Shown: one piece after another, positions 7,303-62,910 of the stretch
Position numbering within the stretch: the stretch's first letter is position 1
Layout: each line of letters starts with the position of its first letter
Assembly: GCA_965235115.1 (NCBI GenBank)
Contig: OZ249436.1
Location: 12,650,001 to 12,714,000 of the forward strand
DNA: 64,000 bases
Reading direction: 5' to 3'
Source of the DNA: Laetmonice hystrix
Lineage: Eukaryota
Translations under genes and position numbers: made by a program
Notes under the pieces: generated by a model
What the model was told of the DNA's origin: nothing
Seen by the model: the letters and a program-made list of their open reading frames with translations, nothing else
Database searches by the model: none

Positions 7303-7459
7303 TACGGAGCCCTCGAAGGGACATGGAAATTATCGCGAGGGAACGTGATATTATCGCGAGCGAACGCGATATGCTCGCGATAGTTATCGCGTTCCCTCGC
7401 GATAATACCGCGTTTCCTCGCGATAATATTTTTTTCCATGTCCCTTCGAGGGCTCCGCA
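7303..7459. mobile_element. Foldback palindromic MITE
   Basis: TACGGAGCCCTCGAAGGGACATGGAAA ... TTTCCATGTCCCTTCGAGGGCTCCGCA with internal TATCGCGA repeats; nearly the whole element is self-complementary. Confidence 0.85.
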
Positions 7460-7515
7460 CTCTCGTCCGTCACGCGAATCATCACTCACCATGCATAGGC
7501 CTATACGCCTATAGC

Positions 7516-7683
7516 CAGGCGCATGTCGGGGGGGGGGGGGGTCCAGGGGGTCCGGACCCCCCTGCTCCCACATAGCATAGATTTTTATCTAAGCATTCCC
7601 GCCATTTTGAAATTTTAAATTTCCTGAGACCCCCCCCCTCCCCCCCCCCCCCCCCCGCGCTGGAAATCCTTGACACGCGCCTG
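7516..7683. mobile_element. hAT-like MITE with 5-bp TSD
   Basis: CAGGCGCATGTC...GACACGCGCCTG; ATAGC on both flanks (7511-7515, 7684-7688). Confidence 0.8.
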
Positions 7684-8064
7684 ATAGCCTATATACCTGC
7701 ATGCAGGCGCTACTATATAGGCCTTTAAAATATATGACCTCGGCATGGCACTGTAAAACGAGTTCATTGGTAGGTTTATCTAAGAGGAGATATAGGGTTG
7801 ATAACAAATTCCCATGCTTATAAGATCCAGACCCCCTATACTGAGATCTATATCTGTTCCAAGTGAAAGCTGCATTGGGCGCTCGACCCCCTCTTCCTCC
7901 GACATTTGATATAGGCTTCTCATAAATTTCAAGTAATAAACGTTATGGGCCTTTTTACGAACTTTGGGGAACCTATAAAAAAGTCTTCTTCAACATGTAT
8001 TACACATGGTTCAGGAATGATCACTTCAAGCTACAAGTTATACCACAACCATGCACCCCAGACC

Positions 8065-8314
8065 CCGGTTTCAGAAATTAGGCTCTAAGCAGCAAGATAC
8101 CTATGACCCATGAGGACACAGCCACTTTAACTTTCTACTTTGATTTTCATGGGTATTTTCACGGCAGTGGAAATATCACCGCAGTGAAATTATTATCACT
8201 GTGAAAATATCGATGAAAATCATCCTAGAAAGTTAAAAACTTTCTAGTCTGTCTAAGCTCTGCTTAGCTTAATATACTGGCTGCTTATTATGTCTAGACC
8301 CTTTCTGAAACCTG
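8065..8314. mobile_element. MITE with imperfect long inverted repeats
   Basis: GGTTTCAGAAA...TAAGCAGC and GCTGCTTA...TTTCTGAAACC; internal TTTAACTTTCTA versus TAGAAAGTTAAA. Confidence 0.6.
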
Positions 8315-9669
8315 CGATGTGTGCACTCTGAAGTGCCCCGAAGTGGCGCAGCCTTTTTAGGGGGGCAGTCCCCCATTGGCCTGACATGTCTTGGGTAGAT
8401 CATGTATGCAGCACTATATACATGTAAGCTGGTACCCGACTCACTCGCTAGGTGGCTCTGGGGTCGACGCGAGTAGGCGCCGGTGTACTAGGCCTATAGA
8501 ATATTATATTTTGCGACTCTTCACTCCTTCCACACTATGCAGTGCTCGATTTTCAAGGAAGTCGCCGTCTCCGTTTTCAGCAGAACTTTTCTCACGGAAG
8601 CGTTGGGAATCCCGGAAATAGTCATTACCAATCTCAGACCCCCCACGACATTCGGGATTCCCTCGGCCATATCTTCGAAAGTAGCCTCGGGTGAAACAGG
8701 CGCCATTTTGAGCATTGCATCGCGGGTACATTTAGACGGGACTCTCGACAGCATGGCAGTGCTTGCAGTATTTTGTCTGCATCAGGCATGGAAGCAACTA
8801 AAATAGGCCTACAATGCTTTCCCCGAAGTCAGTGGGCAATATTACGATAGTATCGTCTTCATGATACAACTTAAATTACAAGTAGTCCTACCACGTGTCG
8901 TGCATGTGTCGTTCATGGGCGCGGCCATATTGCTTCCCATAATTTGATAAATTACCGTATTGACGCCCATTTAGGTAAATTAGGTGATTCATTTTTCTTC
9001 TTCAAATGTTCCCCTTCATACCAGAAATTTATATTTGCACATACAACGCCGAAGGAGCAGGTGTCAATAATGCACTACTTCGTGGCTCGATGGGATATGA
9101 CGGTTCACTCAGTGCCTCGCTACACACCTCCATTTGGCCATGTATCCGGTTGCCAAACATGGCCGCTATTCCACCCGAGGGTATATTCGAATAGCAGGAA
9201 GTGACGTCATATGCCCGAGGGAGTCCCGAATGCCCCCACGAATGTACGGATGGCAGGCGTATTTCCCCCTTAGAAATCTAGAAAAATGCTATCTGAACAT
9301 GCTAAAGCCAGATTTCCACCAGATTGCCCCAATGCACAGTGCACAGTGCTATTTTAGTTGGCAAAGGAGCAATATATAAATGTAATATCTTGGTGATAAA
9401 GTGTTTTTTCACCTCCTGTCAAGTTGTTGCACCCCCCCCCTTGAAAAAAATCCTGGATCCGGCCCTGGATGTCGACCAAATACGTGGGGGGGGGGGGGCA
9501 GTAGGCCTGCCACGTGATAGCGCGTCATTGCGCCGGTCGAGCTGGCCCGGGGTGTGGGTTATACAAAACACACAAAAAATGGAAATCCCAGGGAGGCAGC
9601 TGCCCCTCTGCCCCCCCCCCCCCCCCGCAGGCTACGGCCCTGTCTATATATAGGAAGGCCCTATAGGCC

Positions 9670-10310
9670 TAGGGGAAAGTAGTGTAATTTGGACCCTCAG
9701 GTATATGGACCATGCATACCTATAGAGTCTATATAGTTAGAGCATTTCGCCTATAGCAGCACCAAATCGTATACGTCATGGAACACGCGGCCATAATGAC
9801 TACAACGTGGCAAGTTACTGAATAAACACAGTTACACTAAATACCCTAAAGTCTAAAATATGGCAGTTTGATGTAATTTTCCAATGTCATAAACATTTAA
9901 AGAGCTTCCAAAGGCTACCACTGCTGGATCTGGTTTGGCGATATTTCCATGCAATGCGATAAGTTGTGCATACAATGCTGCGATCTATGGGCTTTCGGCC
10001 TCAACGACTTGTTAATTGTTAGGTCACGGTGACCTTTTTTTCGACCAAATTTCATTGGGGTTAGGCCTATATTATTACAATTTTGGACGGTCCATATTAC
10101 ATACATGCTGTGTAATATGGACCATAATAAATTATTGTAAGAAATTTTGTTGCCAAATATCTTCCGATTTTTATTTTTTTTTTAAAGAGTTTCTCTGTTT
10201 GAGAAGGTCACTTGATTCGTGTTTAAATAAAATATACCTGGGTATAACTGATACACTTTCACATTTTTTCATAATTCTCAATTTTCCTTAGGTGGTCCAT
10301 ACTTTCCCTA
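9670..10310. mobile_element. TA-flanked non-autonomous DNA transposon (Tc1/pogo-like)
   Basis: TAGGGGAAAGTA...ATGGACC left, GGTCCATACTTTCCCTA right; repeated ATATGGACC/GGTCCATAT motifs inside. Confidence 0.6.
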
Positions 10311-10764
10311 AATGCTCTCAACTCCATATAGTTATTACATTGATCAGCAGTGTGTCGACGTGTAAAAACATAATTATATAAGGCCCATAGGCCCAGAGCT
10401 CGCACGGTCTTAGTGAAACGTTAACACATTAATACCCATTATGACAATGGTCCCACCTCTCCAGCGGGGGATATTTTTTAGAGAGAGTCTGAGGAGGACA
10501 CAGAGAGACTGCATGGCCATGTATAATATAATGTACATGTATGTTGTATACGCGCCATGCATCTGCCAATCCGACCGGTCTGACGCAGTAATAAATGACT
10601 CGACAATGCACGCACGTATAGACAGAACACTCCTCATTTAAGTGGAAAAATGTTTTATGACTTTAAATTCAAAACGGTAAATGGAATAAATTGTCTAATA
10701 GTCTAACATCCATACAGAAAGTCCTTCTCCCCCCCCCCCCCCCGATAAAAATATCCCTGATACA

Positions 10765-10960
10765 TAATGAGCAGTACGTGCGAAACAGCTGCACCTTTAC
10801 TTCAGCACTGCACATGTGAAATTTACGAATTAAGAGTATTTCCTTGTACATAACTGTTTACACTGCCCTGCAATATCTGCATCATCTGTCAACTCATTTG
10901 TGAGGATGTGTCCCAAACACTTTATTTGTTCCACCTCCAAGAGAACCTCTCCATTGATTC
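10765..10960 (-). mobile_element. Degenerate LINE RT thumb / C-terminal fragment
   Basis: Minus strand reads INGEVLLEVEQIKCLGHILTNELTDDADIAGQCKQL/..QGN./LIRKFHMCSAEVKVQLFRTYCS with frameshifts, a typical post-RT non-LTR motif. Confidence 0.75.
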
Positions 10961-12379
10961 AAAAATACGGTCAGTTTTCACCTTTGAGCATACTTAACAT
11001 TCATGGCTTAAGGTCATGTGCGGCTACTATATATTATATCAAATCTCTCACTATATCTCGCCATGCATGCATGGTATAACCAATGTATCCAACCCAAACC
11101 CATTACATATCAATGTAATGCATTTCAATACAGAACAAGTATTTTTGAAAATGTTAACATATCTATATGTCACCATGCTTATTTTTTTTGTTATAAGCCT
11201 AGGTTTATGGGAAATAATGCCTTTGCAGGTTTACCCAGGTGGCCCCCAGATTAGTGTGAGGTGCATGACTTGTGCACTCAAATTAACAGAAACGTGCATT
11301 TTCTACAGTCCACACAAAAGGGGGCATGGTAACATATGGATATGTTTACCTTTTTAAAATCAGAAACACTTGTTCTTTCTATCAAAATACATAATATTGA
11401 TATGTAATGGGTTTGACTTAGTGTAGCACATGACCTTCTCACAAATCCTGAGTAGGCCTATAGTAAATCACGTATAACAACGTTATAATGCGATGGCAAT
11501 AAACGGTCTTTGAACTTTGAACTTTGCTAAGGCCTGATCTGATGGGACAATAATATTAATACTGGATCGTCAGCATACGTGAGGTGGTTGATAATCACAC
11601 CACTAAAAAAAAGCTATACCTTACATGAATTTAACTTAGGACTCAAATCATCGACATAATGATTATAGAATGAATCGCCAGAATGACTAAAATTAAGACC
11701 GTCGTCTCGCAGATGGACGATGACAAACAGACATTATGCATGAAGCAAAGTTTTTCAGTGGCATGGTTGCATAATTTGTCGCTCAAACAATGCTATGTTC
11801 GATATAGGCTTATGATGCGTGCGCAATAACCCGTCAAACTATTTATTGGCCTATAGAAATTACAGATTCCAGTTTCCACTGGTTATAATGGATACACCTT
11901 CTGCCTGTCCTCAGTCAGAACCCCACCCAGACTGTCACCGGACAGAACAAGATCCATCTGGACAAATGCTGAATATAGGCCTAGAGGTATATCTCACATC
12001 ACGTGTGTCTATACTCAAGGACACCCTACATTATGTGTGTAATACTCAACTCTGTTGTAAACCTATACTATATATAGCTTATCTGATAGGGCAGAGATTC
12101 TCAGACCTAGACTATACTATGAGGTTCAAGGGTTATTGATTAGGCCGTGTACAGTGCTGTGGCACACACGCGGACCGCCGGGGCGTATTGATGACCCCTG
12201 TGCAGGGGTGGTTTCCATAATGATGTATATGCCGAGGCCTATACGAAAGATGTGTAATGTCAAGAGGAATTAGCACACTGCAATTATAGTGCTCCTTATA
12301 TCGGCCCTAATTATTAGGCCTACTCGAATTTTCTGGTCTCGTTTCCGGGCAATACGGAATATGAAAACTGCATAGATGA

Positions 12380-12879
12380 TAGAGTAGCGTGGGGCAAGGC
12401 ACACCCCCGGGGTAAGGCATATCGCGCTTATAATTAGGCCTAGGCCTACTTAAAGAATCTGCCACCTATAGCGTTTTCTAGAAGCTTTGTGCAGTACTGC
12501 AAGACGTCATGCCCGACCAGCTACGCTATAGGCTATAGGCCTACGCCAAACCAGTTTCCCGGCGAGTAAATAGATCAAAATGATTGTTTTTGGCTCTTTT
12601 TGATAAGGTCCTAATTTTACACATCTGAAAAAGGGAGACAATGTTGATCCCTTGAAAAACTACCAGATAAGGTCGCGGTGCAACTTGCTTTTCTTGGGCG
12701 GACATGTCACGTGACTCCGTGTCAGAGTGGGGTAAGACGCCTTCATGAGTATGGGGCAAGACGCCCCTTGCTAAAACATGATTAAACACTCAAAGTTGAG
12801 GTGGGGCAAGACGCCCGCATCATGAGACAAGACGCTGTGCCTCGGCAGTGATAAAGGCGTCTTGCCCCCGCAAACCCTA
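12380..12879. mobile_element. TA-flanked pogo-like MITE with repeated GGGGCAAGACGCC motifs
   Basis: Left TAGAGTAGCGTGGGGCAAGG, right GGCGTCTTGCCCCCGCAAACCCTA; at least five internal GGGG(C/T)AAG(A/G)C copies. Confidence 0.65.
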
Positions 12880-12890
12880 TGGGACAAGGC

Positions 12891-12930
<40 letters not shown>

Positions 12931-13001
12931 AAAGTGTATTTTTAAACTTTCTTTCAAATACTGAAGTTAATTAAATTTACCCTCACTGTTATAAAAAAAA
13001 T

Positions 13002-13360
13002 GGAAATTACTGCCAATGTTAGGCCTACTGTAGTTTGACAGTTACTCTTGTTGTGTTCGATCAAGACAATAAGCGACTGTAAATTTACAAGAAAACATGG
13101 TAAATTTACAAGATATAAAACTTTAAAAGGAACAGCGCATGCTGCTGTTATATTAGAAATTACTGCCAATGTTATAGGCCTACTGTAGTTTGACAGCTAT
13201 ACGCCTACTCTTGCTCACACTCCTTCCCATGATCCTCTTCGTAGTGAAGACTCATGGGAAGGAGTATGACTCTTGCTGTGTTCGATCAGTACAATAAGCG
13301 ACTGTAAATTTACAAGAAAAAATTGTAAATTTACAAGATATAAAACTGTAAAAGGAACAG
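13002..13360 (+). repeat. Local tandem duplication of ~135 bp; second copy carries a 53-bp insertion
   Basis: GAAATTACTGCCAATGTTA...AAAAGGAACAG at ~13003-13135 and ~13156-13360. Confidence 0.9.
13216..13268. mobile_element. 53-bp hairpin mini-element with 9-bp TSD
   Basis: CACACTCCTTCCCATGA...TCATGGGAAGGAGTATG; ACTCTTGCT at 13207-13215 and 13269-13277. Confidence 0.85.
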
Positions 13361-13708
13361 TGTTCCACTAGGCCTAACGAAAGACGTCTTTAGCAAAGAC
13401 GTCGGAAAGTTAGTGGAACACCCAGTGGCGGATCCGGGGGGGGGTGTCGGCGACGTCGGCCCCCCCCCCTCAAATTTGCCAAATTTATTTTTTTATAACC
13501 CAAATGCCTTATTGTTTTTACAACGGACCCCCCCCCCCCCTTGATTTGCCGTTTTTATGCTGGACCCCCCTAGCTAGGACCACCCCCCCCCCCCCGAATT
13601 TAGACCACGCTATAGATGCGCCCCTGACACCCGTCGCCGCAAAGACCTGTGGATTTGGGCTCAACGACCATTTCAAAGACGTCTTTCGGGCTTAGTGGAA
13701 CGCACCCC
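13358..13708. mobile_element. Harbinger-like MITE interrupted by a hAT-like MITE
   Basis: GTGTTCCACTAGGCC..GAAAGACGTCTTT left, AAAGACGTCTTTCGGGCTTAGTGGAACGCAC right; the TCCACTAAGCC core resembles the TIR of 4751-6900. Confidence 0.65.
13423..13626. mobile_element. hAT-like MITE with 5-bp TSD, nested
   Basis: CAGTGGCGGATC...GATGCGCCCCTG; ACACC at 13418-13422 and 13627-13631. Confidence 0.8.
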
Positions 13709-14310
13709 TGAAACGTATCTGGAGTTAGCATTCCCGCCAAATACCATGCAGTTGGCCACCCGTAGGCCTACCCATCTAGGCCTAGGCCTAATTGGTAAAA
13801 GTTATAAATCTGTAGCCCCCCCCCCCCCCCCTATAGCGTCAATAGTCTATCACAGGTTAAGGCCTACTTTTACTTTCAGTAGGCCCTAGGCCTTATTATG
13901 AGCCAGACCTCGAGATGACCCTTTGGTACTGCTATAGCCTAGCCTACATGTAGGCCTATAATAATTGATAATCGATCAGTCAAAGAGATAGGGTAGGCCT
14001 ATAGACTAATTATAGTAGCCTACACCGCCGGGGACCATGTGGCATGGCCATGGGCTATGACCGACGCGCACAAGTTTGCAGGCGCAGCCAATTTTTCTGT
14101 ATTGAACTTTTTTCTCTATTAAACTTTCCATGCTAACCCAGCTTTTTGACAAATTTAGCACATGACATTCCTTTCTGATGATTAGGCGCACATTTTCCAG
14201 GAAGATCGATATAGGCCCTATTAGCCTAAAGGCCGTTTCCAAACCAATGTCAACACGTTAAATGTTTGCAGATACCAAGCACCCCCGCGCCTCCTGAATG
14301 GACCAGACCG

Positions 14311-39725: not shown

Positions 39726-42206
39726 ATGAGTGCATCTGGATCAAGAAAAACTAGGCCGACTAGATGTAGCACCACGACAGCATCTTCACGATCATCAGGA
39801 ACAGGGCAGGTATGAATTTTGTTCATGCATATCAAGTACATTTTCTTAACTAGCAAATTTAACCATCAGTTCAGTTCAGAATAAATAAAAATGCCCCCCT
39901 CCCCAGTGGGAAATTAATTTGCTGAAGCAGTGAAATATTGTACATGTATACCGGTACTATTTCAATGTACTTTTTTTTTCTTTTTCCAACAAAACTACAT
40001 GAAATGTTGGAATCAGATATTTGCAATAATAACATCCACTTTGCCACCATAAAGCTCCTTGTCAGCTGTGATGGTTATGTTTATATTTTTTCCAGAATTC
40101 AACAATCAGCAAGTCTGTTGCCCCAGCAAGGAGGAGTGCAGCTCTTACAATGCCTTCGTCCAGCAGTATTATACCACAAGGTAGATAAATTATAATAAAG
40201 GTATTAATTAAAAATTATAGTATAGATCTAGAAGGTCTATGCAAAAAACTTTTGTTTAGGCACATGTGTTTTGGTTTATAGGAAACAAAAGAATGAAAGA
40301 ATTTTGTTGTTGATATTTTGATATAAGTAGATATTGGCTACAATTGTTTAAAAATGTTAGTGTGTGGTTGTGTACAATTGTGCTAATTTCATTACATCTA
40401 GGATATAAGGCAAGAGCTGTGCAGCCAGCAAAGAATTATGATGTTGTGTCATTTGCCCGTACAATGAATGATGACTTTGGGCATCGTGTCAAGAAACTCT
40501 TTGATCCTGAGAGAGAAGCTGCTTTGGAGGCTCAACAAACTGGTGAGATATGATACAAATCTGGTGACAAAGAAATAGCTGCCCTATAGGCTATAGTTAT
40601 ATAGTAAGGTACATAAACTTAAACTTGGAGGGGCTTTTACAAAAAGCGAAGGGCTAAAATAGTCTTACTATCACAGAGCCCACAACTGTTTATGTAACAA
40701 CTTTAATTCCATAATCCAGATTAATTCCTATCACATAGGTCTACTTATTTGTCTAACCCTGCTGTAACTATACATCAGTTATTTAAGGGCCTGTGTAATG
40801 TAGTGCAGTTTCTCTCATGTGGACTTATCTTATTGTGTTATATCTTACTTCACGTTTCCATTTAATATCCAGGGATGTATATTGGATGGCGGTGCCCAGA
40901 ATTTAATCATGACTGCCAAAGAGTGGGGTCAAACGGAAAATGTTTTTGTGGGCACCTGTTGATGGAGCACAAAAACTACAATGGTATGTTACAGAAGTAG
41001 GTGTTCCAAGACCAGCAATGCTAGTCAGTGTAGACAGTTACATGTCATACATACAGGTCTGTATCCATTATCCATTAAATCATTAACATATATCCAGACA
41101 GTGCTTATAATCGTTTGACTCAAACGTTGGAAAGAAATAGTTGTTTAGTTTCTGTGTTTTTTTTCTATTTGAGCCAAGACTGTCCTGGTTCCTTGCAATC
41201 AGCCTGCATGCACGTGTAAAGGTTTTGCGTGGATTCCATCCAGACCTGAGGAAGTTGGAGAATATTGGTTCCAGAAACGGCAGAATTTTGATGTATCCAC
41301 ATGGCGCTCAAAATGTCGCTGCAAACACAGTCATGAGGAGCACGAGCCAAATGGTTTACACAGATGCCGTTTCAGAGGTTAACTTGCATTCTAAATTCAG
41401 ATATAATACTTTTGTTATAAGCACATGAAAACTAATACGAATAATAGTGAGAAATAATGTACCAACAAATGTCTGCAGTTTTTAAAATACAGTGTAGGGG
41501 CCTAGATACATGCAATTTTTTATTTTATTTTTATACTCTACAACCTCCTAAATTACCAGTAATTTTTTTTTATAATCATATTTTATTGTTACATTTTATA
41601 AACGCTCTGAATGAATCACAGTGCGTGAATCTCCATTTTAGGATGTGGATGTGGTGCCTTTAACTCCAATTTTCTGTGTGCCGCATGTGACCGTCATTGG
41701 GAAGATCACCAGACATTCTTTGAGACGGCTATGGAGAGGCAGAAGAAGGGACTGCCTGTGGGTAGGTTTGCATCAGCACCCAAAATATACATGCCATGAT
41801 TATCTCATCCTTGAAAATGCTTTAACATGAAAAGTTCCTGCCAAAAGTACAGAAATAGGCAACCCCTGGACAAAAGCGGGCTTAGTATATCTGCTTCATG
41901 GAAATTGTATACTATTTATAAACATCCCATAGAGAGCAAATAAAATATCCTGACAATGTTGCATCATTTTTAGGTGCAGAATATTTGCCGTTTGCGGAGA
42001 TCCCATCCCTGAGAAACATGGTTCTGTCAGGAAAAGATGACGAGGACATGTCTTACATGGCCATTAATCCAGGACCGTTTGCTTCAGCGCCCTCAGCTAT
42101 GCGCGCGCTACCTAGCGGCTCCATGCCGCAGGCTGCAAGTAATGTCATGCCACCTGGTGGCAGATCCCGTCACGCCAAGACCAACTTCAGCCCAGTCTAC
42201 GATTAA
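39726..42206 (+). CDS. FAM221B: FAM221 family protein (FAM221B-like), 7 coding exons, 325 aa
   Basis: Exons 39726-39809, 40096-40180, 40402-40542, 40873-40983, 41174-41377, 41642-41761, 41974-42206 (978 nt). Translation: LFDPEREAALEAQQTGMYIGWRCPEFNHDCQRVG..KCFCGHLLMEH..PC....C.CKGFAWIPSRPEEVGEYW..KR..FD...WRSKCRCKHSHEEH..CGCGAFNSNFLCAACDRHWEDHQTFFET..ER...GLPVGAEYLPFAE, matching the Cys/His-rich FAM221 domain as I remember it. Confidence 0.9.
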
Positions 42207-47559: not shown

Positions 47560-48562
47560 CCCACAAGACCTATTCCATCTTAAACATATGATACGGTTGT
47601 CGCTAGGTTCAAGAAATAATCCCAAATTAAACTACTTATATGACTTTCTAGCCACCACAAAGAGTAGTTATGCGGTTATAGCTTTGAAGGTACAAGCCAC
47701 TGAAAAAATGCACGACCCAAATTGACCTTTATAGGTTAGAAAAGGTCGAAGAATACAATGGTGCAAAATGAAAGGGCACAGGACTTCCTCTACAGTAATA
47801 CTAACTATTGCCTTTTCTTACACTGTTTTCAATTGTACTATGTTATTTTGCACCATTTTCAAGATATGGGCCAAAATAGTGTTATCATTGGGGGCCAAAA
47901 AACAAATATGTTCGCTGTGTCGCCATATTGAATCTAGACAGAAAATAAATTGGCGTATACATTGCCACTCATATGCTTCTTCTTTGCATCAATTAATGTA
48001 AAAGAAATTGTCTGAGTTATTGTTTCATAATGTGTACATCCAAGATGGTCACCAAGCAGCCAATTTGAAGGATATCAGAAATCTATTTGATCTGCATAAT
48101 CCTTCGACTGTCCCTGGTCATTGTGTCATGCTTCACATAAAATTATGTGGTTATCTAAGACTGTTCTGTTTTGATTGACCTTTCAAGGTCACACATGGTT
48201 ATGGAAAATGGTGCCAAATGAAAGTTCATATATGATTTCCTATCAGTCAATAATAGAAATTATTGCCTTATCTTGCACCACTTTCGAGAGACGAGCCAAA
48301 AGTTTGTTTTTTTAGGGGGGAGGGAGTCAAAAAACAAATATGGCCACTATGGGGAACTGATAATACATTGCCATGCTTATTGCCCCTCATATGCCTCTTC
48401 TTTTCGCCAACTTGCATCATACTCAGACCAACCCAGATCAGTGTGTAAAGTTTCATACAATTTGACCTATACACTTCTGAGAAGTCGCCGTCTACGGACG
48501 TGCAGACGTACGGACGGAAGTAAAATTAGAAGCCCCCGCCCCCTTTGGGTTGGGGGCTAAAA
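47560..48562 (+). mobile_element. Helentron-associated non-autonomous element (HINE/DINE-1-like); 5' boundary approximate
   Basis: Terminal stem-loop AGCCCCC..GGGGGCT (48531-48558) preceded by a GGAC/AGAC microsatellite; internal repeats of ATGGTGC.AAATGAAAG..ATATGA.TTCCTA related to the array unit of 55503-59000. Confidence 0.65.
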
Positions 48563-50812: not shown

Positions 50813-53800
50813 CTACAACTTGTCAAGGCGGAATGAGTCCTCTGTGGCTGGGTCAGCAACCATGCTGGGGTCAGTCAGCATCTGTAGGCCATCTAGGTCG
50901 AGTGGATCTAACCCAACCTTCAATGCCTCATCAGATGGAAAAAGTTCAGAGTCAAAACTTTCTGGCATTCCAGCCATTGCATTCCCAAGCTCCTTAGCGA
51001 AATCTTGACGAATCAGTTGATCATCGACTCCTGAAAAATAGAAAAAAATACCATCGTGTTATGGAAAACCATGCTTGGTAAGTTACTCACTATCTAGCTG
51101 TATAACTGATACTCAAATGTAATGAGTGCAAATGCAAGCCTCGGAGACCATAAAAGTGCATGATGTGTCATCCATGGGTAACAGTAATCCTACCTTTCCT
51201 GGACCTGTTTGAAAATTACCTAAGTGACAAGTAATTTAAATGTGAAGAGCTTATACAGGGTTCATACAACTTTAGACTAATATAATTCCAGGACATTTCC
51301 ATGACATTTGCTACATTTTACAGGACATTACTTTAATAAGTTAATTTCGACTTTGTTATTGTCTGTAAATATGTTTTTATTAGATTCTGTTGGAACAAAA
51401 ACACGGATTATACCAGCAGGTCTAATGTTTGGGGATTTTGGGGCATTTTTCCCTTTTTCATTCCCCTCCTAACCCCAGAACTAAAAAATTGAGATTATTT
51501 GAGAAATATTAGCAAGATGGCGTCATTAGTTATAATCTGACAAGCTTTTTCCAGGACATTCTAGCATTATTCCCGGAATAAAGTAGTGTTCTTTCCAGGA
51601 CATTCCAGGCCTAAAAAATGGAAACTGAAAATTCCAGGACTTTCCAGAATTTCCAGGACCCGTGCGAACCCTGTTATAGACTGGACCCAGGTACACCAAC
51701 ATCAACTTCACAAACAAAATTCAATAACGTCTCAAAAGTCATTTCCAGACCAGAAAGAAGAATAAAAATATTACGTATATTTGGGTGCTACAATAAAAGT
51801 ATAATAGTGAACTGTTTTATGGAAATGAAGAAGCGAATTAGTGAAATAAGACTGATCAATCTGAGTTGAATGAAGTGCCATCACTATTTTTGCCATTCAC
51901 TAAAGTGAATACATGTATCTGTGTAATCCTGACAAAAGAAATCAAGATGCAAAAATAAAAATATTCAAATATTCTGTTCTTGTAAAAAAATTAATTAGGT
52001 GTAAATAAATATTAAATGTATAAAGATGCAATAGAACGAGAAATCCTTTAAGCTCACTTGACACCAAATGTTTTAGAGCACAAGTACATTTCTTGATTCA
52101 CTGCATACATCTACTGGTACATAACAACCTATTTTGAGCAGTCTGAATGGAACTGAACATGAGATAAACATTTAGGAATTATTATCAGATACACTTGGAA
52201 GAATAGAGAACCTCCATTCCAGAAAATCTAACTAAACAATGGCTTCGATCACGAGGGGGGGCCTTTTTTCAGAATATTGGCTACATAATTTCGCGTCTTA
52301 CGTGAAACTTTCAGAACTTCTTGCATTCCTCATGCAAAGCAAATAGGTTACAGTTATACATGTATATGGAAAATTACAAGCCATATTCAACTTCAAAGTA
52401 GAACATTAGCACTATTGATTCAATTACCAATATCAAAGGCAATGCAAGGCAACAGCTTTAGACGTCTATCTAATGTTTAAGGCAGTAAAACATTTAACTA
52501 GGGTCATTTCAAATGAGGGACAACTAACCGATAATAGTATTTCTAGTATCACCAACTCTGAACAAGTAAAAAAATCGACTCCCAAAAATATCTTTTACTG
52601 ATGACTATTAAAAATATACTACAAAAAACTCTCATGAAAACAGTCTAGATCGCTGAGCATTTGGCTTAAAACCGATTAAACACAACATGCATTTGAGAGA
52701 TTTATAAAATGACACAGGCATTCGCTGTGGATCTTCGTAATAAACATGCTTCTACACTGAAAGTAGTAAAAGCAGAACAGAAGCTGAGTCAACCAAAGGG
52801 CCAATATGACTCCGATGTGCAAGGTATGACAACCTGCAAACCACACACAGACATAGGTAATCAGGCTATAAAGCATCAAAGACAATGAGTAATGCTGACT
52901 ATCTTCAAAATATGCAAAAATACATGAAACATAGCCAACCATCCGAGATGACCAGATGGAAATTACCATGAGTTAAGTGCAATAACTTGCCTGCATAGCC
53001 TGGTTCCCTGTCTCGTTCAGTCAGTAGGGGGAACCAGTCTAAGCCTGCAAGGAAACGTGAACGTCGTCTGTAGTGTTGGACCCTCTGCTAAAAACTACCC
53101 AAATGCCCACATGCCCTCTGGTGCTGATCACTCATCTACAGGCAGAAAGCCCCCAACCAATGAGTTACTTTTATCTGCTATATCACTGTGTAATCAGGCT
53201 TTTGGATAGTTTACAACCAATGCCAGAATCCCCACATCCTCCCACCTTGGAGGATGACCTCCTTTAATTTATAAGTGTTTTATATGAGAATTTCTCAAAT
53301 TTACACTTAGGTGTTATACACATATAAGTGTCCTTTTCCAATAGTTTTGAGTGACCAGAGCATTAGTAGCCCCACTAAAACATCTGATGGAGTAATTCCT
53401 CCATGACTGCTAACTCACAATGTTATTAACGATGTTAATGCCACAGGGAAATTCCATATATGAAGTTTGCAGCTTTGGGACAATAACGATGAAGCTACCC
53501 TCAACAAAGCGAGAGTGGACCAGTTCCAGGTACATTACAATTTTGTACTGAAGCATTGCTTAAAGATACACAATGACATTCTATACATGAAAAAAAATAA
53601 GCCAGTTCCTACCCATCACTACTATCGTGTGTCTAGGATTGTTTGAGATCATCTGTAGTCTACCTGGTTTTCATTTGAAAATGACAATCGATGAATAACT
53701 ATCATCCTATCATACAATCAGAAAGTCATTTGTTGTGTTTCTTTGCAGATTCTGATTGGGGAATACCCGATGCCTTTACATGTGGCCAAGATTCAGAAGC

Positions 53801-54441: not shown

Positions 54442-57400
54442 TTGCTGCTGATGCTGTGGGGAGGAGGGCTGTTGTGGTGACGTTGATGGGGGAAAATTGA
54501 AGCGGTTTTGTGCATCAATGAACTCCTGGCTGTCGGTGAGGCTTGCCATGCTAACGGGCGGGTACTGTAGGTCAGGCACAGTCACCATACTGTAGAGGCT
54601 ATTCACAGTGCCGTTTGTGGCAGGCAATGTACCGTCTGGCAGCTAGAAATAAGGATAAGAGTACAATATCATTTACAAAACAACAGACTGCCCATAGAAC
54701 AGTGATGTCCTACTCCTGTAAAAATATGTCATTGGCAAATATCACAAAATTTATGCTTTTTAATCTTTACCAAGCATCACTCACCTGCAAAATCTCAATG
54801 TCATAGTTTATTACATGCCAACATAAATATCAATTCATAGGAGAGTACAAAAAAATATAAATTCCATGGTAAAGTGCCCTTTCTGAGATCTGGTTCCACT
54901 ATACACCTTGTAAGTATTTATGAATGTTTAAGTTAATGATCTTTTAACTGACAATCTTGTCTGAAGCAAGAAAGCCTAATCAACAATTACTACATGAAGT
55001 GAAATACATGTAGTCCAATGCACACTGTTCTAAGTGTAAATGTTGGCCACACTTTTATTACAGTGAACCAACTAAATCTTCATAACATTATCACATTAAT
55101 TAATAGAGCAAGGCAGTAATACATACCATGTTAAATTGCTCAAACTGATGCTGCAATGCATTTGTTTGTTGTTGTTGAATGTAGTATGCGTCCGTGAATC
55201 CTGTGCCACTCATGTTGCTAGGCGACAGGTTGTTGGGAGACTGGGAAGGCGAGTATGAGGGTTGTGAAATTGGCGAGGTTGGCGACTGCGGACAGTTCTC
55301 TGTCTGCCCATTCCGGTACTGTGTCAAATTGGTCCCCTACAACATAACAAAATCAAGCCATTGTATCACTCATTCCCTGCTTGTAAGATCACAAAGAGAA
55401 GTTCTAGTGTTGTACTGTTAATATGGTTTTCATGGGTAACAAAGCTGCAGCTTCTGGTATCTGGAATGGGGAACATCTTCTCCATATATAACAAGTAAAA
55501 CAACTAGACCTGTCGTGGTGAAAACCACGATGGATCCCATCCCTTGGGGGGCATGTCCGTATGACGTAGTAAGGTCATTATCACGTTTTTAAATGTTGGT
55601 GTCAATTGAAAGAGCATGTATGACTTCCTATTCGTGTTCAATAGTAACCATGGCTTTATCTCCCACCAGTTAGGAGTTAAAGGCCTTAGAAAATATTGAT
55701 GATGTCATTATTACGTCATACGTCACACTATGTCATCAAACTTGGCTTCGAATAAAATGGCATATGACTTCCTGTTTGTGTTCAATAGTAATTATGGTCC
55801 TATCTTGCACCATTCTTGAATTATAGGCCAAAGAAGACACCAATGACGTCATTATGACGTCATACGTCACGCTATCTTATAAATGTTGGTGTCAATTAAA
55901 AGAGCATGTGTGACTTCTTATTCATGTTCAATAGTAACCATGGCTCTATCTTCAACCGTTCTTGAGTTATAGGCCGTAGAAGATACAATGACGTAATTAT
56001 GACGTCATATGTTACGCTACATAATAAATGTTGGTGTCAATTGAAAGAGCATGTATGACTTCATATTCATGTCCAATAGTAACCATGGTTTTATCTCCCA
56101 CCGTTTAGGAGTTATAGGCCTTAGAAAATATTGATGACGTAATTATGACGTCATACGTCACACTACGTCATCAAACTTGGCTTCAAATAAAAGAGCATAT
56201 GACTTCCTATTTGTGTTCAATAGTAACTATGGTCCTATCTTGCACCGTTCTTGAGTTATAGGCTATAGAAGATACCAATGACGTCATTATGACGTCATAC
56301 GTCACGCTACCTAATAAATGTTGGTGTCAATTGAAAGAGCATGTATGACTTCCTATTCATGTTCAATAGTAACCATGGCTTTATCTCCCACTGTTTAGGA
56401 GTTATAGGCCCTAGAAACTATTGATGACGTCATTGTACGTCATGACGTTACGTCATGTGACGTCATGACTCATTGCCAAATCAGAGTTGGTGACTATCAA
56501 CATGTCCACCAAGTTTGACTTAGATATCTTGAAAAACGAGCGAGATATGACTCCTGGCGTCATTATTACGTCATACGTCACGCTACCTAATAAATGTAGG
56601 TGTCAATAGACCGTTTTCCGTTGCCGGTTGCTATGCTGCCTCGTTTTGAAACTCGGTGCAAGCGCCTAGTTGACGACCCATGTCCGCCATAGTTAACCTA
56701 TGGACAATCACTCGAGAGAGCTAATTTTGAACTGCTCACAAAACCTTGCAAAATAGAATATTTCGAAACTTGGACCGGCCCACGACTACGATCATCCCTC
56801 CAAGAACGCGGTGTGACTATTTCTTGATATAATAAAGCGTCACTGGTAGAGTTATCAAGTTGTGTTTGGGACCTCGAACTGCCGATCGACAGCAGCCTGG
56901 CTGACATACACGGTCCGGCTGACTGGTCTGCCGGGGGTCAAGCGCCGCGGGTGGCCGGGGCGCTTGTTTAGGTGCAAGGCCAAGGGGTAGCCGTTCACCA
57001 GGAGCTTTTCGTTTGCGGCATGCCATCATGACCAAAACAAATTATTAGTTTATTATTTTAAAATGTATTTTTATTGAGGCAGGAACCAGCTGTTGATTTC
57101 TCAATTTTAGGTATAGGCCTATTCGTCAGTAGCCTAATTTTTTTTACATTTAAGGGGAGATATTTTACATACATATATTAGCCTATATACGGGTAAAAAT
57201 CAATTTTACATAGCATATAGGCAGAATGTTACATACTGGGAGAACGAAGATTTTTTACATACGGGCAGAATTTTTACACATTGCGGGAGATTTAGACGGG
57301 CAAATATTTTTAGGGCCTATTACGATAGTTTTACACATGTAGGCTATGAGGGGAATTTTACATAGGGTAGAGATCTACGGGTTGTATAGCCCTCCTCTCT

Positions 57401-60400
57401 GTCGCACGGGTCCGGGGAAGGTAAAAAAAACCTGACATCATCCATGGATGGCCTTGATTTACTGTTTCCTGCCCCATATTTACTGTGACTTGCACATGTT
57501 CCATACCAACAGTGCTTGTTAGCTGGCATTAATGGTCAGTATTGAAATGTTTTCGACTGTCAGGTGTCTCGATGTTGCTAATATCGCTCAAGTCAAAGTT
57601 CCGACCGTTCAACTTCACACCACGATTAAAACTTATTTCTGCCTGTTACCGAGATTCCAACTGACTGTATCGTATCACCCCCATTGTTTTATTAATCTGG
57701 CCACCCCGAACTGCTCATATTGACACGGAGAAACTCAAAATCCCAGATTTGCTCAACACCCCTTTCTTCGTTGTTCGCTATTGCCTAAGCGCTAGCAACG
57801 CGGTGCGCTTGCACCGACTTTGGCGTCGCTAGGGAGCTTGTAGGTGGCGCTAGTAGTAGTTCGGAAAATGGTCTATTGAAAGAGCATGTATGACTTCCTA
57901 TTCATGTCCAATAGTAACCATGGTTTTATCTCCCACCGTTTAGGAGTTATAGGCCTTAGAAAATATTTATGACGTCATACGTCACGCTACGTCATCAAAC
58001 TTGGCTTCAATTGAAAGAGCATGTATGACTTCCTATTCGTGTTCCATGGTAACTATGGTCCTATCTTGCACTGTTTTCGACTTATAGGCCATAGAAGATA
58101 GCAATGACGTCATTATGACGTCATACGTCACGCTACCTAATAAATGTTGGTGTCAATTGAAAGAGCATGTATGACTTCCTATTCATGTTCAATAGTAACC
58201 ATGCCTTTATCTCCCAACGTTTAGGAGTTATAGGCCTTCGAAAACATTGATGACGTCATTATGACGTCATACGTCACGCTACGTCATCAAACTTGGCGTC
58301 AACGGAAACGCTACGTCATCAAACTTGGCGTCAACGGAAAGGGCATGCATGACTTCCTATTCGTGTTCAATAGTAACTATGGCCCTTTCTGGCACCGTTT
58401 ATGAGTTATAGCCATGAATAGCCAAATTGACCACTGTTCAAAATTTTGAAGTCACGTGACTCAGCGAATATAGGTCAAATCAATTGTACCGAGCCGGATT
58501 CCTTTGAAACTCTCCTCAGAGATTATCCCTGTGCAATTTCATAAAATTTTAATGAAAATTGAGGAAGAAGTAGGGATTTAAGCATTTTCTGACCTTTGAC
58601 CTAGTTTTATGACATGTCTAAGGTCAAAGGTCAAAATATTTCCAAAATATGAATTAGGTCCTTGCCCAATTCTAACAGTGTCATTAGTTCTTGGAAAATC
58701 TCCATATTGACTTTGAAAACCGTCCAAATAATCACAACACGAATGACCTCATGACGTCATGACGTTACGTCATGTGACGTCATGACTCATTGTCAGATCA
58801 GAGTTGGTGACTATCAACCTACTCACTAAGTTTGACTTAGATATCTTGAAAAACAACTGAGTTATGACCGAGTTATGACCCCTGTTAACAAATTGTTTAC
58901 TACTACTACTACTACTACTACTACTACGCAAATAATAATAATACGGAAACCGAAACCAGACAATTTCTAGATCCCATCCCCTGGATAGGGGATGGGATAA
59001 TTACAGGACTGGCTGTAATGACATCACATCATTTCATATAACATGCACATAATGTCTTTAAGAAACATAGGACAGCTCTTATGGCTTAAAGATTTGATTG
59101 ATAAACCATAACACGATGATTTACTTTATGAAAACAGTGCCTAGGTATAAATATACCTGATCATTCTAAGATCTCTGTAAATGCGATGGTTATCATGTGC
59201 AAGTTCAGGCCTCGAATTAGAAGTTGAAAGGGGCACAGCTAAAACTGCCGTCGGTACATAAGAATCAACGTCAGATTTTTCCAGGGCACGGCAGCAAATT
59301 TACGATACATGGAAAAGGCACGATAGCAAATGCCATCGATGCCGTCGTGTAATTCAAGGCCTGCAAGTTTGCAACTGCAAAACATAACTCTAATAATTTT
59401 ACCACCTGCCCCGGCACAGAATAGATACTTTGGTCCTTGAATTCATCTAGGATTCTGCTTACCTGGGAATTTGTCATCTGACTATTTACATTAGGCTGAA
59501 GCCGATGTTGTGACCCTAAACTGGGTCTGCCTGGACCTCCGTGTCCATGTTGACCATGACTGTGAACATGAGGTGGATATGGTCGGAACTGTTGGTGGTG
59601 TAACCTGGTTTCTGGGTTCAGGCGGTGCTCTGGGGTCAACCGGTGTGAGTCTAAAATGCAGCCCTATTTGGGCAACAATAACATGCACCACACAACATTC
59701 AGAGGCAGCAAAAATAGCAAACAACATCTGCATCTATACACTACCAAAGTCATGGTAACTATCAAAACATAAAGGTACTGTGCCAACATAAAAAAAACAT
59801 TCTACACTAGCTCATCGTACATGTATTTAATGTACTGGAGGCAAAATGATCACAAGTTCCAACACCAAAAACAATGATGGCAATTTTTTTTTCCAAAACC
59901 AATTTATATGTTGTTTATATCCCTTTCCCTACTGTAGCAACAAAATGTTATTTATTAAATTATGTAAGCACGTGGTATGAATTGCCAGGACGCAATTAAC
60001 TATTTCATCAATTTCAAATGACTCTAAAAACAAGCTCGAGCTCTTACACACTGTCCAATTTGTTATGTATATGTACATGATGAACTTCCTTCAATTTAAA
60101 AAAAGAAATGACAGTCAGCAATCGACAGGAAAGGAACCAAATTCATGGAGATACTTTTCCAAGTGACTTGAACAACTTTAATCTATAATTAGTAAATGCA
60201 ACCATTCTCACTAACTGAAATATTGCTTTGTCTGTGTGTGTGTGATTGGGGGGGGGGGGGGGGGGGGCGTAGGGGGATGTTATCAGTTTGCCCTACTTCA
60301 TTGTGCTGATCTAGTTTCACAAAAGAAATACTCTATTCTTTCATCCCTCTGCACGACAAAGACTTCATATTCTTCCTTGTATCAAAAAGAGGGTAAAAGT

Positions 60401-62910
60401 AGATGGTTGAAAATTTAAATTCTTAACTTGTCATCCTAGATCACCAAGTTCTCCTGATAAAGAACTCTCTGACATACACAGTATAAGACCCACAATCCAT
60501 GCAGCATGCATCATCCCCCCACCCCACCAGTTCACTCTTATTTTGGGATAACTGAATTTTAAAGGAATCTTTTTAAAAGAGGCTATTCATAGGAAAATGT
60601 CAAAAGTACTTGGACATTTTCAACAAATTTTGCTTCTCTTTTTGCAATTTACTGTGAGATACATATCAGTGATGGCCGATTCCTAACACCCGACGCCCGG
60701 GGCAAGTTGAGTGCATGGTCGGGCAAGTCCAACAGACCAAAGACAATAACCTGATGGCTAGTGCTCTGACCCAACATAAACTTAGTAACAAGTATAGAGG
60801 GCATGTGGATGTCAGAGCCGGGCAAGTGGAATTTTGTAGTCCACTTGTCCTGTGGCAAGTGATTAATTTGAAAAATCGGCCACCCCTGCATGTACCTTGA
60901 ACAAAATAATATTTGTTATGTATGTAGGCCCTATCCCTTCTCAAAGACCAATAATACCAAAATAACATTATTTTGCCTGTATTACTATTAATTTCCTGGT
61001 AGACATAGCCTGAGGCCTAAAAAATTGGGTAATGAACAAATAGAGAAAAAGACACGAGTACACTAGGTAGTACAACTCAACAAGCAGGTAGGTAAACTAC
61101 TAAAACGACAGACTAGCCAAATAATAAAAGACTACAACACTACTTGATTAGCCACCAACATTTCCGATCGATTTAGATACAACTGTCCGACATTCAGACT
61201 GTATAGATTATGACCATGGCTCTTCATTGAAGACACCTAAATATTCTTTCATCTGTCCAGGTGACAATTTTGATTCTTTAGACTGCACTTGTATCTAGTG
61301 ACCTTTCAATTTTCAACCGGTCCCTAGTTAAAGTACAGTTTTGCCACTAGATGGAGCTGTAAAGCAATCAACTAGCGCCCTCTAGTGGAGCTCACCTGGA
61401 CCACGTTGTGTCCTATCTGTGTGGGACTGCCATGGAGGACGAGTGGGCTTGGTGCACCCGGTGATTGACGACGGCGTTGCCCTGGAGATGTCTGATTGGC
61501 TCTTACCATGTGGTGGGCTGAGGTTGGTGATAGGTTGCCCGGGTTACTGCCTGGCGAGTACTGTTGCTGCTGTTGTTGCTGTTGTTGTTGCTGCTGCTGT
61601 TGCTGCTGCTGTTGCTGTTGCTGGTCCTCTACATCTAGTGGGGTAACCATTGGCGACGGGAAGTGTAGGTTGGTAAGGTCAGGTAGGGACCCCGTGTTGT
61701 TGGAGATTGGCATGCTGTGTACACCGCTCTCTTGTTCAGGTGAAGGGTATATGCTTCAATGATATCAATAAGCAGTGGTCAGCAAATTTTTCAACAGGCT
61801 GTTAATTCAAGATATCAAAAGGCCATGAAACCATTTGAATCAAACATCCAAACACAATCACAGCTATAAGAATATCATTACCATGAAAAATTCAGGGGGG
61901 GGGGGTCTATGTTTCCTAGAGGGGTGCAGGGGTCGACAGACTTTGGGGTGGTAGCTTAAGCGATTAGGGGTAGGCTTTTGGAAAAAATATTACCAGAAAA
62001 CATTTTTCAGGGAGTAACTGCATGAGCCTGCAGGAAACCCTGGTGGTGTATAGGCTCACTAACTTATTAGGTAACATGAGCTATTTACAGAAAGAGATCC
62101 AATACATCTAAAAAAGCAAAGGCTGCATGGATGAGAGAGTCACAGAATATTAGCAAACGGTCCTGGACTCAGTGACAAATTTGTATACAAGTATCACCAG
62201 GTCAACACGACAGAAAATATCAACATGATTTGCACAATTACATGACTTGCACATTTTCATCCTCAAGGAATTATTGTTGGCTATTGTTGAATATATGTTG
62301 GCTGAGGGATGGAATACCTCATGTCTGTCGAATGAGGAGAGTTATGTCTATACAATCTCTCATTATCATTACTATGCATATTGTCATTGTATGGGCGAGA
62401 ACTACTGATCCCATTACGAATGGAATGAACAAACAGCACATTCTCACCCTGATTGGGTAGTCTGCTAGACTGCTATGCAAAAAACATTCCAGGTCATCGT
62501 TCTATTGCACTCTCTATAAGGGGTCCAACTAAAACCTGTCACTGCCCATGTTACTACCTTGAAATCTAATTTATGCCAAACAACCTGCAGTCATAATATC
62601 CTGATGGGGGGAGGGGGCAATGGTCTAAGGCTCTGGCTTGTGGCCAGAGGGTCTCTCACCTCTAAGTTCAAATCCCCGAGGACGTAAAAACCCCAATTCA
62701 CACCCAAAATCATATGCTGTTTCACATGGTGTAATGATGTAGAAATAGTTGGCCACTAGGTGTCTCTTCCACTCCTGGCAACCCTTATTCCATCTTCTTT
62801 ATTTTAGTTTTATAAAAGACTCTCATTATTTAACTCATACGTGCAGAAAAAACGACTTACTTGATGCCTGGGACTTCACAGGATTTGGGCCTTGACTGCA
62901 CCAACTGCTG
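50813..62910 (-). CDS. CRTC1: CREB-regulated transcription coactivator (CRTC/TORC), 3' part; 5' exons probably lie beyond the window end
   Basis: Exons (minus) 62910-62861, 61753-61396, 59663-59463, 55336-55127, 54642-54249, 51030-50813 (TAG); phases consistent. Motifs [54 protein letters not shown] and C-terminal [38 protein letters not shown] are CRTC hallmarks. Likely a single invertebrate co-orthologue of CRTC1-3. Confidence 0.95.
51256..51673. mobile_element. hAT-like MITE with 5-bp TSD in the last CRTC intron
   Basis: CAGGGTTCATAC...GTGCGAACCCTG; TTATA on both flanks; repeated TTCCAGGAC subterminal motifs. Confidence 0.8.
54340..54456 (-). repeat. Coding CAG/CAA repeats (interrupted polyQ) in CRTC
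   Basis: CTG/TTG runs on + translate to [15 protein letters not shown] in the CRTC exon. Confidence 0.9.
55503..59000 (+). mobile_element. Helentron-type non-autonomous element (HINE) with an internal ~145-bp tandem array, in a CRTC intron
   Basis: 5' hairpin TCGTGGT-gaaa-ACCACGA and GATCCCATCCC near 55533; ~10 units anchored at TGACTT 55621, 55765, 55911, 56056, 56200, 56346, 57891, 58026, 58172, 58350; (ACT)n near 58900-58927; perfect 3' stem-loop ATCCCATCCCCT-ggat-AGGGGATGGGAT ending 58998; no TSD seen. Confidence 0.8.
56608..57874. mobile_element. ISL2EU-like (PIF/Harbinger-related) deletion derivative nested in the HINE array
   Basis: TIR AGACCGTTTTCCG...CGGAAAATGGTCT; AT duplicated inside the array motif GTCAATTGAAAG; + 56756-56890 SAP-like remnant; - 57529-57410 THAP-like remnant. 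Confidence 0.8.
59206..59363. mobile_element. hAT-like MITE with 6-bp TSD
   Basis: CAGGCCTCGAATTA...TAATTCAAGGCCTG; CAAGTT at 59200-59205 and 59364-59369. Confidence 0.8.
60667..60888. mobile_element. hAT-like MITE, probable 5-bp TSD
   Basis: CAGTGATGGCCGATT...AATCGGCCACCCCTG; flanks CATAT and CATGT (one mismatch); repeated GGGCAAGT motifs. Confidence 0.75.
61561..61623 (-). repeat. Coding CAG/CAA repeat, 21 Gln in CRTC
   Basis: 63 nt of CTG/TTG triplets on + read as polyQ in the CRTC frame. Confidence 0.9.

What the first reader, a model, noticed from the sequence alone, without database searches (positions are those of the whole stretch)
55503..59000. Array of 15 perfect CREs carried by a Helentron-type element inside the CREB coactivator gene
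Seen: TGACGTCA at 55844, 55855, 56000, 56146, 56279, 56290, 56425, 56458, 57970, 58105, 58116, 58251, 58262, 58752 and 58775, often as pairs 11 bp apart (about one helical turn), plus many TGACG/CGTCA half-sites and AP-1 TGACTCA sites; I saw only two other copies in the window (~9202, ~30974). Known: TGACGTCA is the CREB/ATF site through which CRTC is recruited, and CpG methylation blocks binding. Inference: the element could be a mobile cAMP-responsive enhancer or CREB sink, here placed to give CRTC autoregulation. Caveat: the family is probably abundant and the location may be chance.
Basis: partly seen in the sequence, partly recalled or inferred. Interest (0 to 1): 0.75.

Follow-up and report, generated by a model that had tools for sequence, protein, structure and literature searches.

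The report
Jumping repeat loaded with CREB sites
A very common non-coding jumping element, whose internal repeat carries about two textbook CREB-binding words per unit where its relatives carry hormone-receptor-type words, sits in an intron of what is likely only one of the two copies of the CREB coactivator gene, most likely by chance and probably silenced there.

Summary
All 15 TGACGTCA are real (17 in the window, 0.71 expected). They are not 15 independent sites but a block repeated with each ~145-nt monomer of a non-autonomous Helentron (HINE, 55504-59001, minus strand), split by a CRE-free 1,267-nt ISL2EU-type insert. The host gene is CRTC. The family is very abundant (ends 2,000-8,500-fold over flank depth; rough). 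Contig depths in three runs of one sample point to an empty allele beside the filled one, so the insertion is likely recent and unfixed. The intron is CpG-depleted (o/e 0.34), as methylated gene bodies are. CRTC autoregulation is not supported. What is new: the monomer is an old cassette shared with HINEs in metagenome contigs, which carry AGGTCA-n4-AGGTCA in exactly the register where this family has ACGTCA-n4-ACGTCA; the cassette also turns up in foldback elements of another class, some with TGACGTCA. This suggests a host-factor landing pad retuned from nuclear-receptor to bZIP type; binding is untested. The scan noted AGGTCA clusters in HINEs of another genome before (unchecked note), not the CRE form.

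The parts
55504..59001 (-). Non-autonomous Helentron (HINE), 3,498 nt with its nested insert; same direction as CRTC; no target duplication
   Evidence: Ends from loose ends and depth steps; empty-allele arithmetic; no ATG-started ORF over 70 aa inside
58971..58998 (-). 5' subterminal inverted repeat with its partner IR, forming a 12-bp hairpin
   Evidence: DNA fold z -6.1, 0 of 200 shuffles as stable
58898..58927 (-). Microsatellite, 10 x 3 nt, behind the 5' hairpin
55534..55545 (-). 3' subterminal inverted repeat (11 of 12 match to the 5' one)
55504..55530 (-). 3' palindrome (7-bp stem, 55513-55530) and terminal CTAG, followed by TT in the flank
   Evidence: whole 61-mer z only -1.7; stem present in both MFE and centroid
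55590..56452 (-). Tandem monomers 1-6 (~145 nt, two alternating subtypes), 7 perfect CREs
56424..56551 (-). Divergent monomer type, 88% like 58743-58868; CRE at 56458 and one TGACTCA
56608..57874 (.). Nested 1,267-nt non-coding element with 13-nt terminal inverted repeats (12 of 13), AT duplication in an A|AT|T site: ISL2EU-type (PHIS); no CRE
   Evidence: target rule from PMC4482050 (passages)
57875..58411 (-). Monomers 7-10, 5 perfect CREs; 57871-58278 is 91% like 56036-56452 (higher-order duplication)
58412..58868 (-). Single-copy inner segment with AGGTCA/TGACCT repeats (58472, 58590-58633), a GTCACGTGAC box (58453), then a CRE cluster (58752, 58775)
55127..55336 (-). CRTC exon downstream of the element; acceptor 168 nt from the element's 3' end
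   Evidence: tblastn to 5 of 5 CRTC homologues tried
59462..59652 (-). Probable CRTC exon upstream of the element (open frame, AG and GT edges; no homologue match)
   Evidence: inferred
61375..61755 (-). CRTC exon with TORC_M
   Evidence: PF12885 E 3.4e-12
50813..51052 (-). CRTC last coding exon with TORC_C
   Evidence: PF12886 E 1.3e-22; best homologues 80-83% in molluscs, an annelid and one unnamed record
48175..48300 (.). Older relic of the same cassette 7 kb away, with TGACCT-TTCA-AGGTCA instead of CREs, in the same register

Best explanation
This is a copy of an abundant non-autonomous Helentron whose ~145-nt internal repeat carries a block of CRE words, and it likely landed in the CRTC intron recently and by chance, likely on one allele only, where gene-body methylation would keep the sites mostly inactive. 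Steps: (1, shown) HINE ends, microsatellite and tandem monomers, no coding capacity. (2, from the known family) a Rep-helicase from an autonomous Helentron moves it by rolling-circle copying into T-rich DNA without target duplication. (3, shown) the monomer is an old cassette; its half-site pair at -46/-36 reads AGGTCA in relatives and ACGTCA here, and short local duplications of this word make the full palindromes and the 11-bp pairs; tandem and higher-order duplication then multiply them to 15. (4, inferred from outgroups) the ACGTCA state is derived. (5, inferred, about 35%) the half-site zone is kept because it recruits host transcription factors that keep donor copies open for copying, so the CREs serve the element rather than CRTC. 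(6, inferred) this particular copy is close to neutral.
For: Anatomy matches HINE (PMC4067079 passages, PMC7492417 parts 1-4 of 7). Abundance: summed contig depth over flank 2,135-3,074 at the 3' end, 4,778-8,515 at the 5' end, 8,500-13,900 over the CRE block (the tool warns this is no copy number). Empty allele: a 1,149-nt contig follows the left flank to 55503 and leaves for 59 letters; extra depth on 59030-59060 equals that contig plus a half-depth junction contig in 3 of 3 informative runs (residuals 34.0, 23.6, 21.1 against flank 68.5, 56.1, 41.1; the 23.6 contig is listed; arithmetic). CpG o/e 0.34 and 0.35 in the flanking introns; transitions in 10 of 16 CpG columns against 11 of 42 other C/G columns of 8 monomers, p 0.012, columns not independent. 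Relatives: 109 of 123 have AGGTCA and 60 of 123 a perfect AGGTCA-n4-AGGTCA upstream of the core; 1 of 128 has a CRE nearby; the upstream 56 nt, not part of the search pattern, score 22-28 in the 5 window units tested against a control mean of -41 (1 of 110,000 as high). The relic at 48186 has AGGTCA in the same register.
Against: The empty allele is inferred from depth sums and lengths; no joint across the element was printed. All four runs are one sample. Methylation is inferred from CpG depletion only; the element itself still has o/e 0.95, and one annelid has lost methylation (PMC11292947, passages). CRE CpGs changed less than other CpGs (2 changes in 6 columns against 9 in 8), which could mean the sites are bound and protected, although a fourth ACGT core changed 4 times in 2 columns. 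With assumed genome sizes of 0.5-2 Gb and 1,000-8,000 copies the chance of hitting this one 13-kb gene is only 0.7-19% (10-96% for any of ten pathway genes). No autonomous partner was found or sought (no genome held). No binding was tested.
Confidence: 0.72

Rival explanations
1. The family is a mobile cAMP/stress-responsive enhancer: unmethylated copies near promoters bind CREB/ATF and bring neighbouring genes under cAMP control, as Helitrons do for heat-shock factor in Caenorhabditis; the CRTC copy need not be one of them.
For: CRE block is family-wide (loose ends); 15 perfect sites in 2.2 kb; on assumed sizes the family could supply 6-44% of the genome's perfect CREs; precedent PMC6927752 (abstract, discussion) and IAP LTR CREs bound by CREB1 when unmethylated (PMC9729108, passages); CRE CpGs change little (weak).
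Against: No expression or chromatin data; CpG decay in the monomers; copy number and genome size are assumptions.
Confidence: 0.25
2. The CREs have no role at all: they are a by-product of one G-to-C change in a self-duplicating GTCA word, spread by slippage and concerted evolution, and the cassette is shared between elements only through capture.
For: One base separates AGGTCA from ACGTCA in register; short duplications are visible in the block; HINEs capture and amplify filler sequence (PMC7492417).
Against: The half-site pair is kept at fixed spacing across families whose core is only about 63% identical, and the cassette sits at a fixed distance from the end in foldback elements of another class, which suggests constraint.
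Confidence: 0.35
3. The insertion gives CRTC a positive autoregulatory loop.
For: It is in a CRTC intron and the chance for this single gene is modest.
Against: Likely heterozygous and recent; mid-gene, CpG-depleted setting; gene chosen after the fact from a family with thousands of ends.
Confidence: 0.05
4. The half-site zone is read by the element's own machinery or shapes nucleosomes (145-nt period, 10-11-bp phasing), and the likeness to CRE and receptor sites is incidental.
For: Only GTCA and its 10-bp spacing are common to all forms; monomer length is close to a nucleosome core (recalled).
Against: The same cassette occurs in elements with unrelated ends and so presumably unrelated transposases.
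Confidence: 0.15

Closest known systems
HINE / DINE-1 non-autonomous Helentrons (PMC4067079, passages; oyster Cg_HINE, PMC7492417, parts 1-4 of 7)
   Same: 5' subTIR with IR hairpin, microsatellite, short array of 140-180-nt monomers, 3' subTIR and palindrome, T-rich site, no target duplication, intronic copies
   Different: Monomer carries a CRE block; neither text as read reports factor-binding words in the monomers; subTIR match is 10 perfect, 11 of 12
Caenorhabditis Helitrons carrying heat-shock elements (PMC6927752, abstract and discussion)
   Same: Rolling-circle elements with dense clusters of one factor's site, polymorphic insertions
   Different: There binding and induction were shown; here CRE instead of HSE, a Helentron in a lophotrochozoan-like animal, nothing shown functionally
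Mouse IAPLTR1/1a CRE (PMC9729108, passages)
   Same: A transposon carries TGACGTCA that CREB1 binds only when unmethylated
   Different: One site in a retroviral promoter, needed for the element's own RNA; here many sites in a non-coding DNA element
BIV160 / Cg170 satellite monomers with two conserved motifs (PMC5139131, passages)
   Same: Conserved motifs shared among divergent HINE-borne monomers
   Different: Their motif sequences were in figures and supplements I did not see, so identity with this cassette is untested
ISL2EU transposons, PHIS superfamily (PMC4482050, passages)
   Same: Nested insert has terminal inverted repeats and an AT duplication in A|AT|T
   Different: No transposase frame; assignment rests on the target site alone

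Membership tests
HINE (non-autonomous Helentron) | Subterminal inverted repeats, 2-4 nt from the 5' end and tens of nt from the 3' end | tested here: met
   11 of 12 match, 3 nt and 30 nt from the ends
HINE (non-autonomous Helentron) | 5' IR pairing with the subTIR | tested here: met
   12-bp hairpin, z -6.1
HINE (non-autonomous Helentron) | 3' palindrome near the end | tested here: met
   7-bp stem 9 nt from the end
HINE (non-autonomous Helentron) | Microsatellite after the 5' module and central tandem repeats | tested here: met
HINE (non-autonomous Helentron) | T-rich target, no target-site duplication | tested here: met
   3' flank TT; no duplication in the sequence; empty site inferred from depth and length, breakpoint uncertain by 1-2 nt
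HINE (non-autonomous Helentron) | Interspersed, non-coding | tested here: met
   Unlike loose ends at both termini in many contigs; no ATG ORF over 70 aa; no Rfam match
HINE (non-autonomous Helentron) | Autonomous Helentron partner with matching ends | not testable with these tools
   No genome held for the window
cAMP-responsive enhancer | Canonical CRE words | tested here: met
cAMP-responsive enhancer | Unmethylated, open, CREB/CRTC-bound, inducible | not testable with these tools
   Indirect evidence points to methylation at this locus
ISL2EU (nested insert) | TIRs and AT duplication in A|AT|T | tested here: met
   an alternative reading without duplication fits the same letters
ISL2EU (nested insert) | ISL2EU transposase or partner | tested here: inconclusive
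   No long ORF; partner not searchable
CRTC/TORC gene | TORC_M and TORC_C domains in order on one strand | tested here: met
   TORC_N lies outside the window

The most novel reading that the evidence does not exclude
Animal DNA transposons of unrelated classes share an old ~120-nt host-factor docking cassette whose half-site zone has been retuned from nuclear-receptor words (AGGTCA-n4-AGGTCA) to bZIP words; in this genome the all-CRE version has been amplified into the order of ten thousand monomers, supplying a large share of all CREs and acting as a mobile cAMP-responsive enhancer or CREB sink wherever it escapes methylation.
Probability: 0.2. Interest if true: 0.75.

Novelty: new variant of a known kind. 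Interest (0 to 1): 0.42.

Why it matters
The carrier and the idea of Helitrons spreading factor sites are known, and the CRTC location is probably luck. What would matter is the cassette: a one-base switch in a conserved half-site pair turns a receptor-type word into a CREB-type word across a whole high-copy family, and the same cassette appears in cut-and-paste elements. If host factors bind it, it would explain why HINE monomers keep conserved motifs over long times and would give a cAMP counterpart to the heat-shock rewiring seen in nematodes. The likely heterozygous CRTC insertion is also a ready-made allele-specific test.

Tried and rejected
No whole genome is held for the window, so copies could not be counted or mapped against genes. 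No RNA holder listed; says nothing on expression. Viral contigs: 0 matches to the core pattern and 0 to the CRE block. Rfam: 0 matches in 54500-60000. Prokaryote genome scan: 56 matches, 54 of them no better than chance outside the pattern and used as controls. Of 12 cassette-like instances in G001, 9 do not beat the controls in the -34..-5 zone, among them all CRE-bearing ones; L155 beats them downstream (10.5 against a maximum of 1.7) but L124 does not (1.0), so homology of the CRE-bearing foldback form rests on L155, on shared position and on a 17-letter match to an in-genome subfamily seen. The half-site zone alone scores well only for the subtype-A unit (7 of 110,000 controls as high) and weakly for subtype B (350-1,279). 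Protection of CRE CpGs: too few events. A two-element reading (two separate arrays) was rejected: the nested insert splits one monomer cleanly. Earlier-findings look-ups by sequence and by relatives returned nothing. Literature searches that found no report of CRE or AGGTCA arrays in Helentrons; the library lacks most subscription papers, and I read no supplements (Cg_HINE and BIV160 consensus sequences there may hold the same cassette).
Full report
Observation. The 15 TGACGTCA are at the coordinates given, with two more at 9202 and 30974: 17 against 0.71 expected, 0 of 100 shuffles. Four pairs are 11 bp apart. Half-sites number 58 in the element against 1.07 per kb outside; AP-1 words number three. 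The sites are not independent: they lie in one block of a 144-146-nt monomer present as 10 core-anchored units of two alternating subtypes, plus a divergent type present twice.

Carrier. Read on the minus strand the element has a 5' subterminal repeat folded with its partner into a 12-bp hairpin (z -6.1), a 10-unit trinucleotide run, the monomers, a 3' subterminal repeat (11 of 12 match), a 7-bp stem and a terminal CTAG followed by TT. This is the HINE plan of PMC4067079 (passages) and PMC7492417 (parts 1-4 of 7). It has no ATG frame over 70 aa and no Rfam match. A 1,267-nt insert at 56608-57874, with 13-nt inverted ends and an AT duplication in A|AT|T, splits one monomer and holds no CRE; that target is the ISL2EU rule (PMC4482050, passages).

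Host gene. TORC_M at 61375-61755 and TORC_C at 50816-51058 pass Pfam's cut-offs (2 of 10 frames scanned); five homologues place an exon at 55127-55333. The element lies 168 nt upstream of that exon's acceptor, mid-gene; the 5' end of CRTC is outside the window. Best homologues are 80-83% identical and come from molluscs, an annelid and one unnamed record (47 hits among 81 candidates); earlier unchecked notes call the animal a probable annelid.

Abundance and polymorphism. Four runs of one sample hold the locus. Summed contig depth over single-copy flank is 2,135-3,074 at the 3' end, 4,778-8,515 at the 5' end, 8,528-13,863 over the CRE block and 59,000-104,000 over the monomer core; the tool warns that this is no copy number, so I take only the order: thousands. 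Loose ends of 37-51 contigs per deep run give the CRE block as consensus, so it is family-wide. One 1,149-nt contig follows the left flank to 55503 and then leaves for 59 letters. On the right flank the extra depth ending at 59060 equals that contig's depth plus a remainder of 34.0, 23.6 and 21.1 in the three deep runs, about half the shared flank (68.5, 56.1, 41.1); the 23.6 contig is listed as crossing the element's end. Fifty-nine letters back from 59060 is 59002, one base after the place where other copies stop matching. I infer an empty and a filled allele in this animal; no joint was printed, and the fourth run does not cover the flank.

Methylation. Flanking introns have CpG o/e 0.34 and 0.35, the element 0.96 and 0.94; in 8 of the 10 monomers, 10 of 16 CpG columns show transitions against 11 of 42 other C/G columns (p 0.012, not independent). 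Gene-body methylation is common in annelids that have 5mC and is linked to intronic transposons in one of them (PMC11292947, passages); in Nematostella it silences intragenic transposons (PMC13345969, passages); CREB1 binds IAP CREs only when unmethylated (PMC9729108, passages; PMC1796609, abstract). So this copy is likely methylated and quiet. Against this, the CRE CpGs changed less than other CpGs (2 changes in 6 columns against 9 in 8), but a fourth core changed 4 times in 2 columns and the counts are small.

Chance. For assumed genomes of 0.5-2 Gb and 1,000-8,000 copies, a 13-kb gene is hit with probability 0.7-19% and one of ten pathway genes with 10-96%. With a recent, unfixed insertion this gives no ground for autoregulation.

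Origin of the CREs. A pattern from the monomer core found 122 metagenome loci (about 29,000 stretches estimated from 1 of 64 parts). They are HINE-like: 32 of 89 with a readable upstream boundary start with AAC(A/T)AG against 1.9% by chance (32 of 121 dropped as too near the locus end), and many end in microsatellite and hairpin. Only 1 of 128 distinct matches has a CRE nearby. Instead GTCA starts at -46 in 86 and at -36 in 84 of 123; 109 of 123 have AGGTCA, 60 of 123 a perfect AGGTCA-n4-AGGTCA. Subtype A here reads ACGTCA-n4-ACGTCA in the same ungapped register, and a profile of those 56 nt, which were not in the search pattern, scores 5 of 5 window units tested at 22-28 against a control mean of -41. 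A relic 7 kb away has AGGTCA at -46 (the printed -47 comes from an anchor one base off), and loose ends show an in-genome subfamily with a CRE half followed by AGGTCA and an E-box. The labels DR4, nuclear-receptor half-site and E-box are recalled. The CRE block is thus a one-base variant of a conserved half-site pair, extended by short duplications; direction is inferred from the outgroups, which may be few species.

A second element class. Two of 56 matches in prokaryote assemblies (L124, L155) come from one binned genome that holds 63 matches to this repeat, probably animal DNA binned in error (inference). L155 is a 770-nt foldback (80%) with TA-flanked CAGGG ends (Tc1/mariner-like, label recalled). 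Of 12 cassette instances, 4 have TGACGTCA, 6 AGGTCA, and 7 lie 82-88 nt from the end. Three of 12 match the HINE profile upstream (7-16 against a control maximum of -2.3, n 54), nine do not; L155 matches downstream (10.5 against 1.7), L124 does not. So the cassette is shared across classes, with the CRE-bearing form less firmly tied.

Mechanism. Most likely: rolling-circle copying in trans (from the known family), chance landing, near-neutral at CRTC (0.72). Why the half-sites persist is open: I favour recruitment of host factors that keep donors accessible (about 0.35) level with a neutral by-product (0.35). A family-wide cAMP enhancer effect at unmethylated copies has a precedent in Caenorhabditis Helitrons with heat-shock elements (PMC6927752, abstract and discussion) and stays possible (0.25); on assumed sizes the family could supply 6-44% of perfect CREs.

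Novelty. HINEs with tandem monomers and Helitrons with factor-site clusters are known. Searches found no report of CRE arrays or of an AGGTCA-to-ACGTCA switch in Helentrons; PMC5139131 and PMC8268682 (passages) mention conserved motifs without factor assignment, and their supplements were not read. An earlier unchecked note of this scan reports AGGTCA clusters in HINEs of another genome. Verdict: new variant of a known kind, interest 0.42.

Noticed in passing
window 59206-59363: A second high-copy element in the same CRTC intron: 158 nt, inverted ends, CAAGTT on both sides, depth about 1,500-2,500 times flank.
   Followed up: partly
window 9195-9209: The lone CRE at 9202 overlaps an ETS-type word (GGAAGTGACGTCA; composite label recalled), a better candidate for a real promoter CRE.
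   Followed up: no
window 47600-48560: Decayed HINE with two copies of the same cassette in its nuclear-receptor form.
   Followed up: partly
window 54989-55456: The other CRTC haplotype differs by three substitutions and a 7-nt intronic insertion at 55115.
   Followed up: no
window 58955-59001: Other genomic copies show the 5' hairpin repeated head-to-tail with 15-26 letters between, in line with earlier notes of self-nesting HINEs in this genome.
   Followed up: no
G001 (L124, L155, L179-L198): A binned bacterial genome holds 63 matches to animal-like foldback repeats: probable host DNA contamination of a reference collection.
   Followed up: partly
window 40314-42206: Exons of a FAM221-like gene on the plus strand (weak Pfam match), converging on CRTC.
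   Followed up: no
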